Origin: a virus
DNA: 64,000 nt
IMG/VR virus record: IMGVR_UViG_3300005537_000002
Location: 96,001-160,000 of that record
Reading direction: 5' to 3' (one strand)
Notes under the pieces: model-generated
The model's database searches: none
Told to the model about the DNA's origin: nothing
Seen by the model: the letters and a program-made list of their open reading frames with translations, nothing else
Translations under genes and position numbers: made by a program
In this document: positions 6,428 to 62,575 of the stretch, in pieces
How positions within the stretch are numbered: position 1 is the stretch's first letter
Layout of the letters: the number at the start of each line of letters is the position of its first letter

Positions 6428-6717
6428 TGTCGGTCAAGCATGTTTCACATACAAGGGAGGAGTTACTAGAACTGATACCACTGAAGCTGAAGACGTATCC
6501 CGCTCTAGCGGCAGGACTTTTACTAAAGTTGTTTCAGGGTACACCAGCAGATAATGTCCACTATGCTTTAGAGCGACTTAGAGCGGATGGTATAGTTTTA
6601 CGGGCTGCTATACCAACTGGTAAGGATATCGTCGCAGTATACTACCATAGAACCTCTACTGTGTTTATAGAAGCGTTTTATAATGCCCAGTTCGGAGACC
6701 GATGGAGTAGATACTAG
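6424..6717 (+). CDS. putative winged-helix protein
   Basis: V.YAL.RL...G.V wing pattern; paralogue of 9246..9560. Confidence 0.6.
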   Translation: MMSVKHVSHTREELLELIPLKLKTYPALAAGLLLKLFQGTPADNVHYALERLRADGIVLRAAIPTGKDIVAVYYHRTSTVFIEAFYNAQFGDRWSRY

Positions 6718-7255
6718 AAGGGGTGTTGCTATAAAAATATGGACGCTTGACCGTAACTGGTGGGAGTGTTTTCGTGCGTTAGACACCCAACGGTTGCTGG
6801 CGCAACATTTTGAGCATCATACGATACTGTCGATGGTAGCTAGGGGTAGACGTTGGAAAGGCTGGGAGGAGCCTCAGTATAGGTTTGAGTTGGTAAGCTT
6901 GCATGATATGATAGTCGAGGAGCTACGAGTACGTAAGATGCCTTCTGGACTTAAGCATCTGACACCAGTCGAGCATGAAGTGTGCGTAGATGAGCAGCGA
7001 ACGTATCCTATCACCGATGACATGTTAGAGGACGAACGTTGGGCCTTAACATGTCGTTGGAATGGGGTGTATAAAGGTAGAGACGAACCTCCGTTTTGGT
7101 GGTTGGGGTATGAAGAGCGTTATCAAGCACAGGGAGGTGTCTGCCTTCATAACGGTGACGTAGAACGTATCGACAGCGACACCTACCTGTGCTTACTCTG
7201 CAAGCAGTTCACACGAGAAGCTGGAACTAAGTTATGGGAGCCAAAAAGAAAGTGA
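6683..7255 (+). CDS. hypothetical protein with C-terminal Cys cluster
   Basis: CLH...CLLC; start uncertain. Confidence 0.75.
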   Translation: MPSSETDGVDTRRGVAIKIWTLDRNWWECFRALDTQRLLAQHFEHHTILSMVARGRRWKGWEEPQYRFELVSLHDMIVEELRVRKMPSGLKHLTPVEHEVCVDEQRTYPITDDMLEDERWALTCRWNGVYKGRDEPPFWWLGYEERYQAQGGVCLHNGDVERIDSDTYLCLLCKQFTREAGTKLWEPKRK

Positions 7256-7617
7256 GTAAGCAGATGTTGACGACGTTGCAAAACTTCATTTGGGAACGAG
7301 TTCCTCCTGGCAGGATTGCTGCTAGATTCAAACATGAGTTGAGAGTACAGTTAGGGGTAAAGCCCTTTATGTCGGTCTCGTTAGATGAGGACGGTGTTAA
7401 GCAGTACGAAACGCTGCTGTCATCAGTGGTAGTAGCAGACTTTATACAACACATGCAAGAGCATGAAGCTGCTTACTGGTCGTCTTTAGGTTACGATCCA
7501 CCGCTAGTAACAGCGGCGACAGCATACGCGATAGCACTAGGCATACCGACTGTGCTATCAGAGATCTTCCAGAACAGCGTGTTGATGAGAGCCTGGACAA
7601 AGGAGACAGAAGAATGA
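7252..7617 (+). CDS. hypothetical protein
   Basis: GTGA overlap start; paralogue of 7614..7952. Confidence 0.75.
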   Translation: MSKQMLTTLQNFIWERVPPGRIAARFKHELRVQLGVKPFMSVSLDEDGVKQYETLLSSVVVADFIQHMQEHEAAYWSSLGYDPPLVTAATAYAIALGIPTVLSEIFQNSVLMRAWTKETEE

Positions 7618-51667: not shown

Positions 51668-51769
51668 AAATCCAGTTCTAGTTAGTTTTTACACGGACTG
51701 ATTCGATACGCAGCATAAATCATACACACTCAAGTTAAGTCCGTGTAAAAACTAACTATAGCTGGATTT
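51668..51769. repeat. long inverted-repeat element, copy 1
   Basis: About 32-bp arms with 2 mismatches; core TAGTTAGTTTTTAC...GTAAAAACTAACTA. Confidence 0.9.
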
Positions 51770-55572: not shown

Positions 55573-55653
55573 CGGGGGGAGATAGTCCCCGGCGTTAGTT
55601 CCCCCGAAACGTGATAGCGGTAGACATACAACGACTGTAGAAGGAGATATGCA

Positions 55654-56073
55654 ATGCCAGAACGGACTGATGAGCACTTAGGTAACTACGTGTGGAGAAG
55701 GGCGAACGGTACGTACTATCGTAAACCAGGCGGCAGTCAAGAATCTAGAGAACTCAACTCAAGCCAAGCACTTTTCCTAGCGAGCGATGACTACGAAGCA
55801 AGACTAGAGATGTGGAAGCGAGTTGGCGGACAGAAGTTGTTGCTCTACTACCTGATGAGACTTGTAGAGGTACACGAAGAGTTCCGTATACAGTATAAGT
55901 ACTCTGTTAAGAAACTAGAAGATGCTACTGGATACTCGTTTGACTCTCCACTCGTACTAGTACTGCGAAACGGTGATCGAGAAGTCTGGCTCGGAGATCT
56001 CTCAGACTTCACCGAAGAAGGTTGGCAGTCTGAACTCAAGGGGTACGTCGATGAGACCTTCCCGATCGAGTAA
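55654..56073 (+). CDS. hypothetical protein
   Basis: SD AAGGAG; last gene of the long + run. Confidence 0.85.
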   Translation: MPERTDEHLGNYVWRRANGTYYRKPGGSQESRELNSSQALFLASDDYEARLEMWKRVGGQKLLLYYLMRLVEVHEEFRIQYKYSVKKLEDATGYSFDSPLVLVLRNGDREVWLGDLSDFTEEGWQSELKGYVDETFPIE

Positions 56074-56181
56074 CCGACAGTAGACATGAGTATGTATACT
56101 GTCGAAGCTAGTTAGGTAGAACGCAGACTCTAGCAAGTTCGTGATAGCATAGTAGAGTGCATACCTCTCTATACTTGCGTA

Positions 56182-56218
56182 GAACGGTCGAGTACGACAT
56201 GTACTCGACCGTTTGTGT
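56182..56218 (+). terminator. intrinsic terminator
   Basis: AACGGTCGAGTAC-GACAT-GTACTCGACCGTT then TGTGTT. Confidence 0.75.
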
Positions 56219-56247
56219 TGGTCAGATCGCACGGTAGAACGTGATAG

Positions 56248-56422
56248 CCGTAGACTGTTGGAGGTTGCATGGCCGTAGTCCCGTAGACCGAACGGATGCG
56301 TGTTGCCCGTAGTCCGTTCCCGGTTGGGGGTGGCCGGTCGTACGTACGTGACGGTCAGGTCGGTAAGGGGGTCACCGGGGACGCCCGTAGGCAGTAACGG
56401 CCGTAGACGAACTGGCCCGTAG
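56248..56422 (+). repeat. seven copies of CCGTAG
   Basis: At 56248, 56273, 56281, 56307, 56385, 56401 and 56417. Confidence 0.85.
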
Positions 56423-56476
56423 GACTTTCCAAGGGGGCCTTGTCCATGGGGGTAAGGGGGTGTTTAGCCCAGGGGG
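56326..56476 (+). other. G5-tract cluster, putative G-quadruplex
   Basis: GGGGG at 56326, 56367, 56433, 56448, 56456 and 56472. Confidence 0.7.
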
Positions 56477-56640
56477 TCAAATTTCACCCTTCACAAACTA
56501 AAAATTCACACCGCCGCCCCCACTAAATCCCACCTTCACAAAAATAAACTTCAGGTTTCACAACCCTAAAACTTTACCTTCGCCAACCACAAATTTACAC
56601 TCAGTCAACTCAAATTTTACCAACCTAAAACTTTTATCGC
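56477..56640 (+). repeat. G-poor A/C-rich block with short repeats
   Basis: TTCAC x5, CCTAAAACTTT at 56565 and 56624, several AAATTT tracts. Confidence 0.8.
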
Positions 56641-56865
56641 TTGTTGCCTGGTTAGGTCGCTGTTTTGTGGCTTATAAGGAACTGCTTCCAGTGAACACGT
56701 TCACTAGTGGCTGTACTGCGGGCCAGCTTCCTGGCAGAAGGCCAGCTTACGCTAGCATTCAGGCGTCGTAGCTCGTTACGGAGAGGGTAGTAACGAAACG
56801 TTAGCGCTAGCCCACGAACTTCTACGAAGTGTTAGCAAATTGGGCAAAACTGTAACGTATTTTCC

Positions 56866-56894
56866 TTGACATCCGTGTATTGGCATGGTATACT
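56866..56894 (+). promoter_or_regulatory. consensus sigma70 promoter with extended -10
   Basis: TTGACA-N17-TATACT, with TG at 56886-87. Confidence 0.9.
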
Positions 56895-56923
56895 CCTTGT
56901 GTAGGGTGAGGGAGTGAGGAAAC

Positions 56924-56942
56924 GGGTTACACAGTGTAACCC
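56924..56942. repeat. palindrome, 9-bp arms
   Basis: GGGTTACAC-A-GTGTAACCC in the 5' leader. Confidence 0.85.
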
Positions 56943-56977
56943 TCCTACAATCCAGGTACACCCACAAAGGAGATTTC

Positions 56978-57478
56978 ATGGCTAGCTTAAACATCACTGC
57001 ACAAAATGTTGACTCACAAGCACGCGACAAAGCGTTAAAGCTCGCGCAACAGTTGAACGTCACACTACACGGCTTTCCAACAGGGAAGGCACCTATGCTG
57101 GCAGTCATTGAGCGTGCTGGAGAAAAGCAGTGTGATGTGTACTACTCTGAGAGCCAATCACCACAAGGCATGTGTCACATCGCCGCAAGGTCAACGGGCA
57201 AGGGACCGTCAAGCAGCAACGCAAACGCAAACGGCCCATTCAACGCCCGTGAAGTGTCGGAGCAAGTAGCTTTCCTGTTCACACGACACTATATGAACTT
57301 GCGCGTCGGAACGCCAGGACACATTACTAACCCACAAGAGACGGTAGCCAATGCCGATGGTACGGTTACGTTGAGACTGCACAACGGTCAAGCCTTTACG
57401 ATCTCTGTCACTGCTGTTAAGCCTGTTACTGTCACTGAGGTTAGCCCGCTTCTTGCCAAGACTGCCAACGCTAAGTAA
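56978..57478 (+). CDS. hypothetical protein
   Basis: SD AAAGGAG; first gene after the consensus promoter. Confidence 0.85.
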   Translation: MASLNITAQNVDSQARDKALKLAQQLNVTLHGFPTGKAPMLAVIERAGEKQCDVYYSESQSPQGMCHIAARSTGKGPSSSNANANGPFNAREVSEQVAFLFTRHYMNLRVGTPGHITNPQETVANADGTVTLRLHNGQAFTISVTAVKPVTVTEVSPLLAKTANAK

Positions 57479-59130: not shown

Positions 59131-59296
59131 CAGGCGTTTTAAGTTTTAGTTGAGTAAGGGAGCGGCGATGAAATGGTCCCGAAGCGCCCCCTGGGCAAAA
59201 CGCAGCATGACTCTCACTCCACTCCGCCTTTTGTAGCTAGCGATTTCCCCTGCCAATGTGTAAGCCAACGTTGCTGACGTAAGGGTCACCAGCCGC

Positions 59297-62492: not shown

Positions 62493-62575
62493 GCTATAGT
62501 TAGTTTTTACTGGGTGTATATACATAGATATATAAATCATACGTATACGTTTGCAGCCCGAGTAAAAACTAACTA
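62493..62575. repeat. inverted-repeat element, copy 2
   Basis: TAGTTAGTTTTTAC-N51-GTAAAAACTAACTA with internal ATAAATCATAC, as at 51.7 kb. Confidence 0.9.

What the first reader, a model, noticed from the sequence alone, without database searches (positions are those of the whole stretch)
56326..56476. Six exact G5 tracts: candidate G-quadruplex at the suspected genome junction
Seen: GGGGG-N10-GGGGG-N3-GGGGG-N11-GGGGG (56433-56476) plus two more G5 and one G4 just upstream, all on one strand in non-coding DNA. Established: G4 elements act as cis signals at Neisseria pilE and in herpesvirus packaging signals. Inference: a structural signal for end processing, packaging initiation, ejection pausing or replication start.
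Basis: partly seen in the sequence, partly recalled or inferred. Interest (0 to 1): 0.7.

Follow-up and report, generated by a model that had tools for sequence, protein, structure and literature searches.

The report
G-tract cluster at probable phage end
Six runs of exactly five Gs form the strongest G-run cluster in a novel 177-kb soil phage genome and end at its sharpest base-composition switch. This most likely marks a genome end or packaging cut site, as in distantly related Thermus phages, but nothing shows that it folds into a G-quadruplex.

Summary
Six G5 tracts and one G4 lie at 56326-56476 on the + strand, in a 904-nt gap without genes. Genome shuffles never produce such a cluster. 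It is the top G4Hunter window of the 177-kb genome and one of only two G3+N1-12 motifs.

New here: the last tract ends at the genome's sharpest G-content step. The most G-depleted window starts at 56477, and the genome's only perfect host-type promoter lies 390 nt downstream.

The phage's large terminase is closest to Thermus phages P23-45 and phiFa, which have mapped long terminal repeats. In both, I found that the repeat boundaries coincide with the genome's strongest G/C-run clusters. phiFa also has its most G-depleted window there.

My best reading (about 0.45) is a terminal-repeat boundary or terminase site. A replication origin is the main rival (about 0.2).

G-quadruplex folding is possible on paper. 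Against it are the 10- and 11-nt loops, the duplex context and the phage's complete 7-deazaguanine DNA-modification pathway, which would remove the N7 that G-tetrads need.

No relative carrying the region was found, so conservation could not be tested. The true ends remain unmapped.

The parts
56075..56104 (+). Hairpin (13-nt arms, 12 of 13 paired, 4-nt loop) directly after the stop of the last gene of the 56-kb small-gene block
   Evidence: (I3)
56183..56213 (+). Perfect 13-bp stem with a 5-nt loop, followed by TGTGTT. It is terminator-like but failed the strict T-run rule of the scan
   Evidence: (I1)
56116..56240 (+). Three GTAGAAC copies (56116, 56179, 56234). Two of the four exact CGTGATAGC copies in the window also lie here (56140, 56240)
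56247..56423 (+). Seven direct (G/C)CCGTAG repeats, all on one strand. This is the second densest 6-mer array in the genome
56326..56476 (+). Six G5 tracts and one G4, interleaved with the CCGTAG repeats. Five tracts read GGGGGT, and the exact 11-mer GGTAAGGGGGT occurs twice (56362, 56451)
   Evidence: (D15)
56433..56476 (+). G5-N10-G5-N3-G5-N11-G5, the extended-loop G-quadruplex candidate. G4Hunter is 1.5 at w=44, the top window of the genome. The ViennaRNA G4 model gives -34.9 kcal/mol against -6.8 (DNA) or -15.0 (RNA) for hairpins
56477..56645 (+). G-depleted A/C-rich array (8 G in 169 nt) with CTAAAA/TTCACA repeats, one C5, and A-runs spaced about 21-23 nt in its second half. It is the most G-poor window of the genome and begins one base after the last G5
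   Evidence: (D1, D2)
56866..56894 (+). TTGACA-17-TATACT promoter with TG before the -10. It is the only perfect -35 / 17-nt-spacer site in the 177-kb genome
56978..57478 (+). First gene after the gap (166 aa). It has no homologue in PHROGs, IMG/VR or the 5.8-billion-protein set

Best explanation
The G5 cluster and the G-free A/C-rich array that follows it form one cis element at a physical end of the virion DNA. Most likely this is the left boundary of a direct terminal repeat, where the terminase complex recognises and cuts the concatemer. On this reading the GGGGG(T) tracts and the CCGTAG repeats are reiterated binding or positioning sites on one side of the cut. The rigid G/C tracts, followed by a strand-asymmetric array with partly phased A-runs, give the structural discontinuity that marks the site. 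The DNA to the right, carrying the strong host-type promoter and a five-gene orphan operon, would be the first to enter the cell.

Shown: the anatomy, its uniqueness in the genome, and the same signature at the mapped repeat boundaries of two TerL-related phages.

Inferred: that this phage has fixed ends at all, that one lies here, and which protein reads the tracts. Whether the tracts act as B-form duplex, as an A-like G/C tract or as a transient G-quadruplex is open. I rate a working G-quadruplex at about 0.2.
For: (1) Uniqueness. This is the only place in 177 kb with 4 or more G5 runs in 150 nt. It is the top G4Hunter window at w=44, 60 and 150. The largest G-content step of the genome is at 56476 (59, against 38 for the next), and the most G-poor window starts at 56477.

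(2) Position. The cluster lies after the hairpins that close a 56-kb one-strand gene block and 390 nt before the only perfect TTGACA-17-TG-TATACT promoter of the genome. The layout of end, then repeats, then host promoter, then orphan early genes resembles the left ends of T7, T5 and P23-45 (T7 and T5 from my own knowledge; P23-45 from PMC10770324).

(3) Terminase kinship. TerL (G000 170033-171394) is closest to Tunturiibacter phage Tunturi_4 (40%), Halorubrum phage Hardycor1 (38%), Thermus phiFa (35%, E 1e-61) and the P23-45 group (32%, E about 1e-43). T4-like headful packagers follow far behind at 27%. P23-45 has 2.7-kb and phiFa 6.6-kb direct terminal repeats (PMC10770324; PMC11437467).

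(4) The same signature in those phages, computed here. In P23-45 the densest C/G-run cluster of the genome (5 runs of >=4 per 100 nt) starts at 83601 and straddles the left boundary at 83631. The top |G4Hunter| windows are the two boundaries. The cut lies inside a C6 tract, and the tract core is conserved in the stolb1, stolb3 and TSP4 phages while the flanks diverge. In phiFa the top |G4Hunter| window (-1.72) and the most G-poor window both sit at the right boundary, 6638. Its left boundary reads G4, G3, G5, G3 | cut | C6, A7, C5, the same polarity relative to the early genes as here.

(5) A related G5 cluster (GGGGGTAAGGGGGT...GGGGG) lies at the classical cos position between an HNH endonuclease gene and terS in L037. 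In L040 it lies 370 nt before terL. It occurs once per genome in every record checked.
Against: The ends of this phage are not mapped. The assembly is circular and no reads were available. The terminase argument rests on 32-40% identity and on two characterised lineages. The element lies 17.5 kb upstream of terL, and the rest of the genome is unrelated to the Thermus phages. No second boundary with a matching motif was found. The best secondary match is a 14/15 inverted copy at 59187-59201, which is not significant. Relatives with 66% TerL identity (G001, G002) show no such cluster in the 6-15 kb upstream of terL that their fragments cover. In one IMG/VR family a similar cluster sits beside iterons in or next to a replication-initiator gene, which points to an origin rather than an end. 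Four of the IMG/VR hits lie at contig ends, which could equally be assembly breaks at G-runs; one contig has a poly-G artefact at its other end.
Confidence: 0.45

Rival explanations
1. The element is a replication origin. The CCGTAG direct repeats would be iterons for an initiator. The G-tract cluster on the non-template strand would promote an R-loop or hybrid G-quadruplex that supplies a primer, as at mitochondrial CSB II or ColE1. The A-rich array would unwind.
For: There are seven same-strand direct repeats next to a 62% A+T array with partly phased A-runs. In the L036/L042/L045/L048 family a very similar G-tract cluster abuts a GTTACG repeat array inside or next to a gene matching replication-initiation/primosomal PHROGs, much as lambda ori lies inside gene O (my own knowledge). 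The strand composition flips at this point.
Against: No initiator, helicase or primase gene is nearby. The replication module lies at 45-85 kb of the record, about 70-100 kb away, and the cumulative GC-skew minimum is at about 45 kb beside the helicase gene, not here. There is no DnaA box with <=1 mismatch in 56000-57000. The array is A/C-rich rather than strongly AT-rich. No promoter was found that would drive a primer transcript through the tracts.
Confidence: 0.2
2. The element is a transcriptional insulator between the end of the long middle/late block and the pre-early operon. G-tracts on the sense strand would stall or terminate read-through RNA polymerase, through an RNA G-quadruplex or an R-loop, backing up the two hairpins.
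For: The tracts lie on the coding strand, directly downstream of two hairpins that lack a good U-run, and upstream of a promoter that must be host-controlled. As RNA, the four 3' tracts are predicted to prefer a G4 (-34.9 kcal/mol) over hairpins (-15.0). RNA is not subject to DpdA modification.
Against: This does not explain the seven CCGTAG repeats, the 165-nt G-free array or the exact tract length. Other operon boundaries in this genome use hairpins without G-tracts. It also does not explain the parallel with terminal-repeat boundaries in P23-45 and phiFa.
Confidence: 0.1
3. The element is an array of binding sites for some other DNA-binding protein, for example an ejection-stop signal like T5 iss, a partition or anchoring site, or a host nucleoid protein. 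It would have no role in end formation, and non-B DNA would play no part.
For: The element consists of reiterated short motifs (GGGGGT x5, CCGTAG x7, GTAGAAC x3, an exact 11-mer x2). Host-type parS sites were reported by an earlier agent just downstream (e1-5812538; not tested here). Four exact CGTGATAGC copies are confined to the last 1.5 kb before the tracts.
Against: No candidate protein was identified. This does not account for the extreme strand asymmetry or for the match to terminal-repeat boundaries.
Confidence: 0.15
4. The cluster has no function. It would be a chance or mutational by-product in a non-coding spacer.
For: G5 is not enriched in the window overall. No relative is available to show conservation.
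Against: Shuffles exclude it genome-wide (0 of 200) and locally (P about 0.001). The uniform tract length, the repeated GGGGGT and 11-mer, and the coincidence with the genome's sharpest composition step all argue for selection.
Confidence: 0.05

Closest known systems
Direct-terminal-repeat boundaries of Thermus phages P23-45 (Oshimavirus) and phiFa
   Same: TerL belongs to the same broad clade (32-35% identity). The boundaries coincide with each genome's strongest G/C-run clusters and, in phiFa, with its most G-depleted window. Early or pre-early genes start a few hundred nt inside the left boundary. A non-B-DNA element (the R-Y triplex) is annotated 33 nt from the P23-45 boundary.
   Different: The rest of the genome is unrelated: 177 kb against 77-86 kb, a soil mesophile against thermophiles, and no TMP-fused RNA polymerase seen. 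Tract sequences are not alignable. Here the tracts are exactly G5 and interleaved with CCGTAG repeats. The ends of this phage are unmapped, and the Thermus phages are not known to carry deazaguanine genes.
Herpesvirus pac1 packaging signal (T-rich core flanked by G tracts; conserved G4 motif: Biswas et al. 2018, cited in PMC13595911)
   Same: G tracts flank a short T-containing core (GGGGGTGTTTAGCCCAGGGGG at 56456-56476), there is G4 potential, a terminase of the same superfamily is involved, and the proposed role is in cleavage and packaging.
   Different: There is no sequence homology. The T-rich core is weak (TGTTT), no pac2 partner was found, the host domain differs, and cleavage is not mapped. 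This is a resemblance only.
T7 concatemer junction (160-bp terminal repeat flanked by short repeat arrays, followed by the strong host promoters A1-A3)
   Same: The layout is similar: arrays of short direct repeats and C5/G5 runs at the end, then host-type promoters and early genes on one strand (my own knowledge).
   Different: The virus family differs (siphovirus with a 1577-aa tape measure protein) and so does the terminase clade. No T7-type RNA polymerase or class II pause site was identified.
Iteron-type phage origins such as lambda ori inside gene O
   Same: Same-strand direct repeats lie next to an A-rich region. A similar G-tract cluster sits beside iterons in the initiator gene of the L048 family.
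   Different: There is no adjacent initiator gene, no DnaA box, and the element is far from the replication module.
Neisseria pilE G4
   Same: A G-rich element on one strand upstream of a gene.
   Different: The pilE G4 is a compact canonical G3 motif that needs a dedicated sRNA promoter and drives recombination with silent copies. None of this was seen here.

Membership tests
Canonical G-quadruplex motif (four G>=3 tracts, loops 1-7 nt) | Four G>=3 tracts with all loops <=7 nt | tested here: not met
   The loops are 10, 3 and 11 nt. The N1-7 regex finds only one site in the genome (14911), not this one.
Extended G-quadruplex candidates (loops <=12 nt; G4Hunter) | G3+N1-12 motif and G4Hunter above 1.2-1.5 | tested here: met
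   It is one of only two N1-12 motifs in 177 kb. G4Hunter is 1.64 at w=25 and 1.5 at w=44, the top window of the genome. The ViennaRNA G4 model gives -34.9 kcal/mol; that model is crude for long loops and uses RNA parameters.
Functional G-quadruplex | K+-dependent folding of the native, possibly modified, DNA or RNA | not testable with these tools
   This needs CD, UV melting or DMS footprinting. The predicted 7-deazaguanine pathway could abolish folding if the tracts are modified.
Terminal-repeat boundary / terminase site of the P23-45-phiFa type | TerL of the clade whose characterised members package long direct terminal repeats | tested here: met
   tblastn gives phiFa 34.8% (E 1e-61) and P23-45 32.3% (E 4e-43). 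The next characterised group, T4-like, is at 27% (E 1e-11 to 1e-15). The kinship is distant.
Terminal-repeat boundary / terminase site of the P23-45-phiFa type | The boundary coincides with the genome's top G/C-run cluster and a strand-asymmetric G-poor array | tested here: met
   The reference phages show it. This phage shows the top G4Hunter window, the largest G step at 56476 and the most G-poor window at 56477.
Terminal-repeat boundary / terminase site of the P23-45-phiFa type | Physical DNA ends and terminal redundancy at this site | not testable with these tools
   No reads were available.
Terminal-repeat boundary / terminase site of the P23-45-phiFa type | A second boundary sharing a motif with the first (as the two P23-45 boundaries share GGTG.GG.AAA.CACCCCC) | tested here: inconclusive
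   Only a non-significant 14/15 inverted match at 59187-59201 (E=12) was found.
Herpesvirus pac1 | T-rich core flanked by G tracts, paired with pac2, with cleavage at a fixed distance | tested here: inconclusive
   G5-TGTTTAGCCCA-G5 is present. The core is weakly T-rich, no pac2-like CGCGGCG motif was looked for, and cleavage is unmapped.
Iteron-type replication origin | Iterons plus an AT-rich unwinding element plus a nearby initiator gene or DnaA boxes | tested here: inconclusive
   Direct repeats are present and the array is 62% A+T. No DnaA box was found. The neighbouring genes are orphans without replication-family matches.

The most novel reading that the evidence does not exclude
Clusters of G/C runs able to form non-B DNA (G-quadruplex, i-motif or triplex) might be the conserved physical signal that terminases of the P23-45/phiFa/this-phage clade use to set terminal-repeat boundaries. 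That would be a bacterial-virus counterpart of the herpesvirus pac1 G4. In this phage the signal would have to coexist with 7-deazaguanine DNA. Either the tracts are exempt from DpdA, or modification switches the signal off after replication and so times the cutting.
Probability: 0.12. Interest if true: 0.8.

Novelty: new variant of a known kind. Interest (0 to 1): 0.45.

Why it matters
If the G5 cluster marks a terminal-repeat boundary, it gives a sequence-only signature for locating the ends of uncultured phages of this terminase clade: the top G/C-run cluster abutting a G-free array. Circular assemblies hide those ends at present. It would also extend the link between G-tract packaging signals and terminases from herpesviruses to tailed phages. 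The phage also offers a natural test of whether 7-deazaguanine DNA modification, which removes N7, is compatible with G-tract cis signals. I found no paper in the searched library that raises this point. As things stand, these are predictions from analogy, not demonstrated functions.

Tried and rejected
- **Close relatives of the region.**
  - blastn of 55600-57400 against GenBank phages gave no match.
  - Protein-based scans of IMG/VR with the first gene, the last gene and the 343-aa gene found no relatives.
  - The 5.8-billion-protein search with the first gene found only itself.
  - The metagenome scan with a 23-mer from the A/C array found nothing.
- **Relatives found through TerL.** G001 and G002 (66% identity) are 18-21-kb fragments without the region or any G5 cluster. 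G003 shares only TerL.
- **A structured RNA.** There was no Rfam match at E<=1 and no tRNA in the gap.
- **The record's own ends as the true ends.** Rejected, because the 110-bp overlap lies inside a long ORF.
- **A second C5 cluster at 51.86-51.96 kb.** Rejected, because it is one C5 plus one C7 counted several times.
- **GC skew as a marker of an end or origin here.** There is only a local plateau. The cumulative minimum is at about 45 kb.
- **SD-like reading of TAAGGGGGT.** No start codon follows at a usable distance.
- **Single-sequence fold of the DpdA-like protein.** It failed (pLDDT 36) and was replaced by an alignment-based model.
- **Pfam TGT search of the genome.** Negative. The family is too divergent for that model, but a profile hit to PDB 7ui4 and the fold search identify it.

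Full report
**What the window is.** The window is bases 96001-160000 of a 177,637-bp IMG/VR virus record.
- The record's ends share an exact 110-bp overlap that lies inside a >970-aa ORF. The assembly is therefore a closed circle, and the physical ends of the virion DNA are unknown.
- Nearly all genes are on the + strand.
- The virus is a siphovirus-type phage. It has a 1577-aa tape measure protein, two family A DNA polymerases and helicases, TerL at 170033-171394 and a portal gene at 172704, and an array of 10-11 tRNA genes at 165.3-168.1 kb.
- Most small genes around the finding have no PHROG match.

**The observation.**
- They lie in a 904-nt gap (56074-56977) between the stop of the last gene of a 56-kb block of small + strand genes and the next gene. 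The gap holds no convincing ORF, tRNA or Rfam family.
- G5 as a word is not enriched in the window (57 against 60 expected), but the cluster is far beyond chance. No other place in the genome has four G5 runs within 150 nt.
- In 200 dinucleotide shuffles of the genome the maximum was 4 runs per 151 nt, against 6 observed.
- Shuffles of the local 181 nt, which keep its 41% G, gave a mean of 2.2 runs, with P about 0.001.
- G runs in the stretch are 1-2 long or exactly 5, with one of 4. Five tracts read GGGGGT, and the 11-mer GGTAAGGGGGT occurs twice.

**Anatomy of the gap.** From left to right the gap contains:
- two hairpins (56075-56104 and 56183-56213, the second a perfect 13-bp stem);
- three GTAGAAC copies;
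- seven same-strand (G/C)CCGTAG repeats (56247-56423), interleaved with the G tracts;
- from 56477, a 169-nt array with only 8 G, built of CTAAAA/TTCACA-type repeats, with A-runs about 21-23 nt apart in its second half;
- at 56866-56894, a TTGACA-17-TATACT promoter with an upstream TG.

A scan of the genome finds three sites with 11 of 12 matches to the host-type promoter consensus, two of them on the + strand. This is the only one with a perfect -35 hexamer and a 17-nt spacer.

Two measures computed here sharpen the picture. The largest step in G content anywhere in the genome is at 56476 (65 G in the 150 nt to the left, 6 to the right; difference 59, next largest 38). The most G-depleted 100- and 150-nt windows of the genome both start at 56477. 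The last G5 tract therefore ends exactly at the sharpest composition switch of the genome.

**G-quadruplex potential.**
- The four 3' tracts miss the canonical N1-7 definition but fit N1-12. Only two such motifs exist in the genome.
- G4Hunter gives 1.64 at w=25 and 1.5 at w=44, and the region is the top window at w=44, 60 and 150.
- The ViennaRNA G4 model prefers a five-layer quadruplex (-34.9 kcal/mol) to hairpins (-15.0 as RNA, -6.8 as DNA) for the isolated strand. That model is crude for long loops and says nothing about competition with the duplex.

One fact cuts the other way. The phage encodes QueD, FolE, a QueE-like enzyme and Gat-QueC. It also encodes a 267-aa protein whose family profile hits the DNA-guanine transglycosylase DpdA (7ui4, E 3e-4). 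Its alignment-based model (pLDDT 94.8) matches archaeosine TGT, TGT and DpdA structures. This is the gene set of phages that replace G in DNA by 7-deazaguanines. Replacement ranges from under 0.1% to 100% depending on the DpdA type, and modification is post-replicative (PMC10516641). 7-Deazaguanine lacks N7, the Hoogsteen acceptor of G-tetrads (established chemistry). If the tracts are modified, mature DNA cannot form the G4. Which Gs are modified cannot be told from sequence.

**Is this a genome end?** Direct evidence is not obtainable here, so I looked at the terminase. TerL is closest to Tunturiibacter phage Tunturi_4 (40%), Halorubrum phage Hardycor1 (38%), Thermus phiFa (35%) and the P23-45 group (32%). 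T4-like headful packagers score far lower. P23-45 has 2.7-kb and phiFa 6.6-kb direct terminal repeats that carry pre-early or early genes (PMC10770324; PMC11437467). I fetched both genomes and ran the same measures.

P23-45:
- The densest cluster of C/G runs in the genome starts at 83601 and straddles the left boundary (83631).
- The top |G4Hunter| windows (w=50) are the annotated triplex element next to the right boundary and the left boundary, tied at -1.44.
- The left end lies inside a C6 tract.
- The tract core is the conserved part of the region in stolb1, stolb3 and TSP4.
- The two boundaries share a G-rich/A-run/C-tract motif.

phiFa:
- The top |G4Hunter| window (-1.72) and the most G-poor window of the genome sit at the right boundary, 6638.
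- The left boundary reads G4, G3, G5, G3, then the cut, then C6, A7, C5.
- A G-free CACTACCCC-type array follows the right boundary.

The element in the window has the same three properties: the top G/C-run cluster, an abutting G-depleted array, and early genes a few hundred nt beyond on the same strand. This is an analogy across 32-35% TerL identity and two lineages, not proof.

**A wider look.** The pattern GGGGGTAAGGGGGT-N9-13-GGGGG hit 13 loci on 12 IMG/VR contigs with GC from 33 to 70%.
- In nearly all of them it is part of a larger G5-G7 cluster in spacer DNA beside short repeat arrays.
- Apart from one contig end that looks like a poly-G artefact and the two copies in an end overlap, the cluster occurs at one locus in each of the five records checked.
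- In L037 it lies between an HNH endonuclease gene and terS, the classical cos position. In L040 it lies 370 nt before terL.
- L038 resembles this phage: a repeat array, then the G cluster, then a TTGACA promoter and small genes.
- In the L036/L042/L045/L048 family, whose TerL is distantly related to this phage's, the cluster abuts GTTACG repeats inside or next to a replication-initiator gene. That fits an origin.
- Four contigs end at or near the cluster, which could mean physical ends or assembly breaks at G runs.

The chance expectation for this pattern is only roughly a few hits. I therefore treat this as a lead that single-copy G-tract clusters are a recurrent phage cis element, found at both packaging and replication positions.

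**Weighing the readings.**

| Reading | Confidence | Main points |
|---|---|---|
| Terminal-repeat boundary / terminase site | about 0.45 | Best fits the position, the uniqueness and the terminase-clade parallel |
| Replication origin | about 0.2 | Favoured by the iteron-like repeats and the L048 case. Weakened by the distance from the replication module, the GC-skew minimum at about 45 kb and the absence of DnaA boxes |
| Other protein-binding array | about 0.15 | Reiterated short motifs, but no candidate protein |
| Transcriptional insulator | about 0.1 | Tracts on the sense strand after weak hairpins, but does not explain the repeats or the G-free array |
| No function | about 0.05 | Excluded by the shuffles and the motif regularity |

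Whether a folded G4 is the working form is a separate question, which I rate at about 0.2. P23-45 does carry a proven triplex-forming element at its boundary, according to its record and the literature cited there. The long loops and the deazaguanine pathway argue against a G4 here.

**What could not be done.**
- No relative carrying the region was found, so conservation of tract number is untested.
- No second boundary was identified.

Noticed in passing
L006:9695-10689 (G000 87694-88688, outside the window): A 1-kb stretch without ORFs that is strikingly G+T-rich and C-poor on the + strand, with GGTATG x6 and many GGTAAGG/GGTTTGG units. It ranks among the top G4Hunter windows at w=150 (0.67-0.70). 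Its function is unknown.
   Followed up: partly
L036-L048 (IMG/VR contigs): GGGGGTAAGGGGGT plus further G5-G7 tracts recurs as a single locus per genome in unrelated viral contigs (GC 33-70%). It lies beside short repeat arrays: at the HNH|terS position (L037), just before terL (L040), and beside iterons in a replication-initiator gene (L048 family). Four contigs end at or near it.
   Followed up: partly
OP542242 (L053/L054) and MH673672 (L050/L055/L056): In Thermus phages P23-45 and phiFa the mapped terminal-repeat boundaries coincide with the genome-wide top G/C-run clusters. In phiFa they also coincide with the most G-depleted window. The two P23-45 boundaries share a GGTG.GG.AAA.CACCCCC-like motif. 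I did not find this stated in the papers I read.
   Followed up: yes
G000 63548-64351 (L005:3549-4352): A 267-aa protein with no Pfam or PHROG name is a TGT-fold, DpdA-like enzyme (pLDDT 94.8; Foldseek hits to ArcTGT, TGT and DpdA; profile hit to 7ui4). It sits between FolE and Gat-QueC, completing a 7-deazaguanine DNA-modification cluster.
   Followed up: yes
window 54759, 55610, 56140, 56240: The four exact copies of CGTGATAGC in the window all fall in the last 1.7 kb before the G tracts. Two lie in coding DNA and two in the gap, and 55608-55625 and 56238-56255 match at 17 of 18 bases.
   Followed up: no
window 59187-59201: An inverted 14/15 copy of GTTTAGCCCAGGGGG (the last G5 tract and its left flank). 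It lies in the next non-coding gap, 2.7 kb downstream, between two strong hairpins and a TTGATT-17-TATAAT promoter. The match is not statistically significant (E=12).
   Followed up: partly
window 51679-51758 and 62497-62575: Two copies of an ~80-bp element with TAGTTAGTTTTTAC inverted arms and a shared ATAAATCATAC core flank the finding at -4.7 and +6.0 kb. Another first-stage note proposed them as terminal-repeat limits. I did not test this.
   Followed up: no
G000 about 7150-7400 (L002): TACACC occurs 11 times within 250 nt, inside ORF 6717-7508. This is the densest 6-mer array of the genome and is probably a coding tandem repeat.
   Followed up: no
G000 165.3-168.1 kb (L007:6350-9143): An array of 10-11 tRNA genes lies 2-5 kb upstream of terL. 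It accounts for the large ORF-free gaps there.
   Followed up: yes
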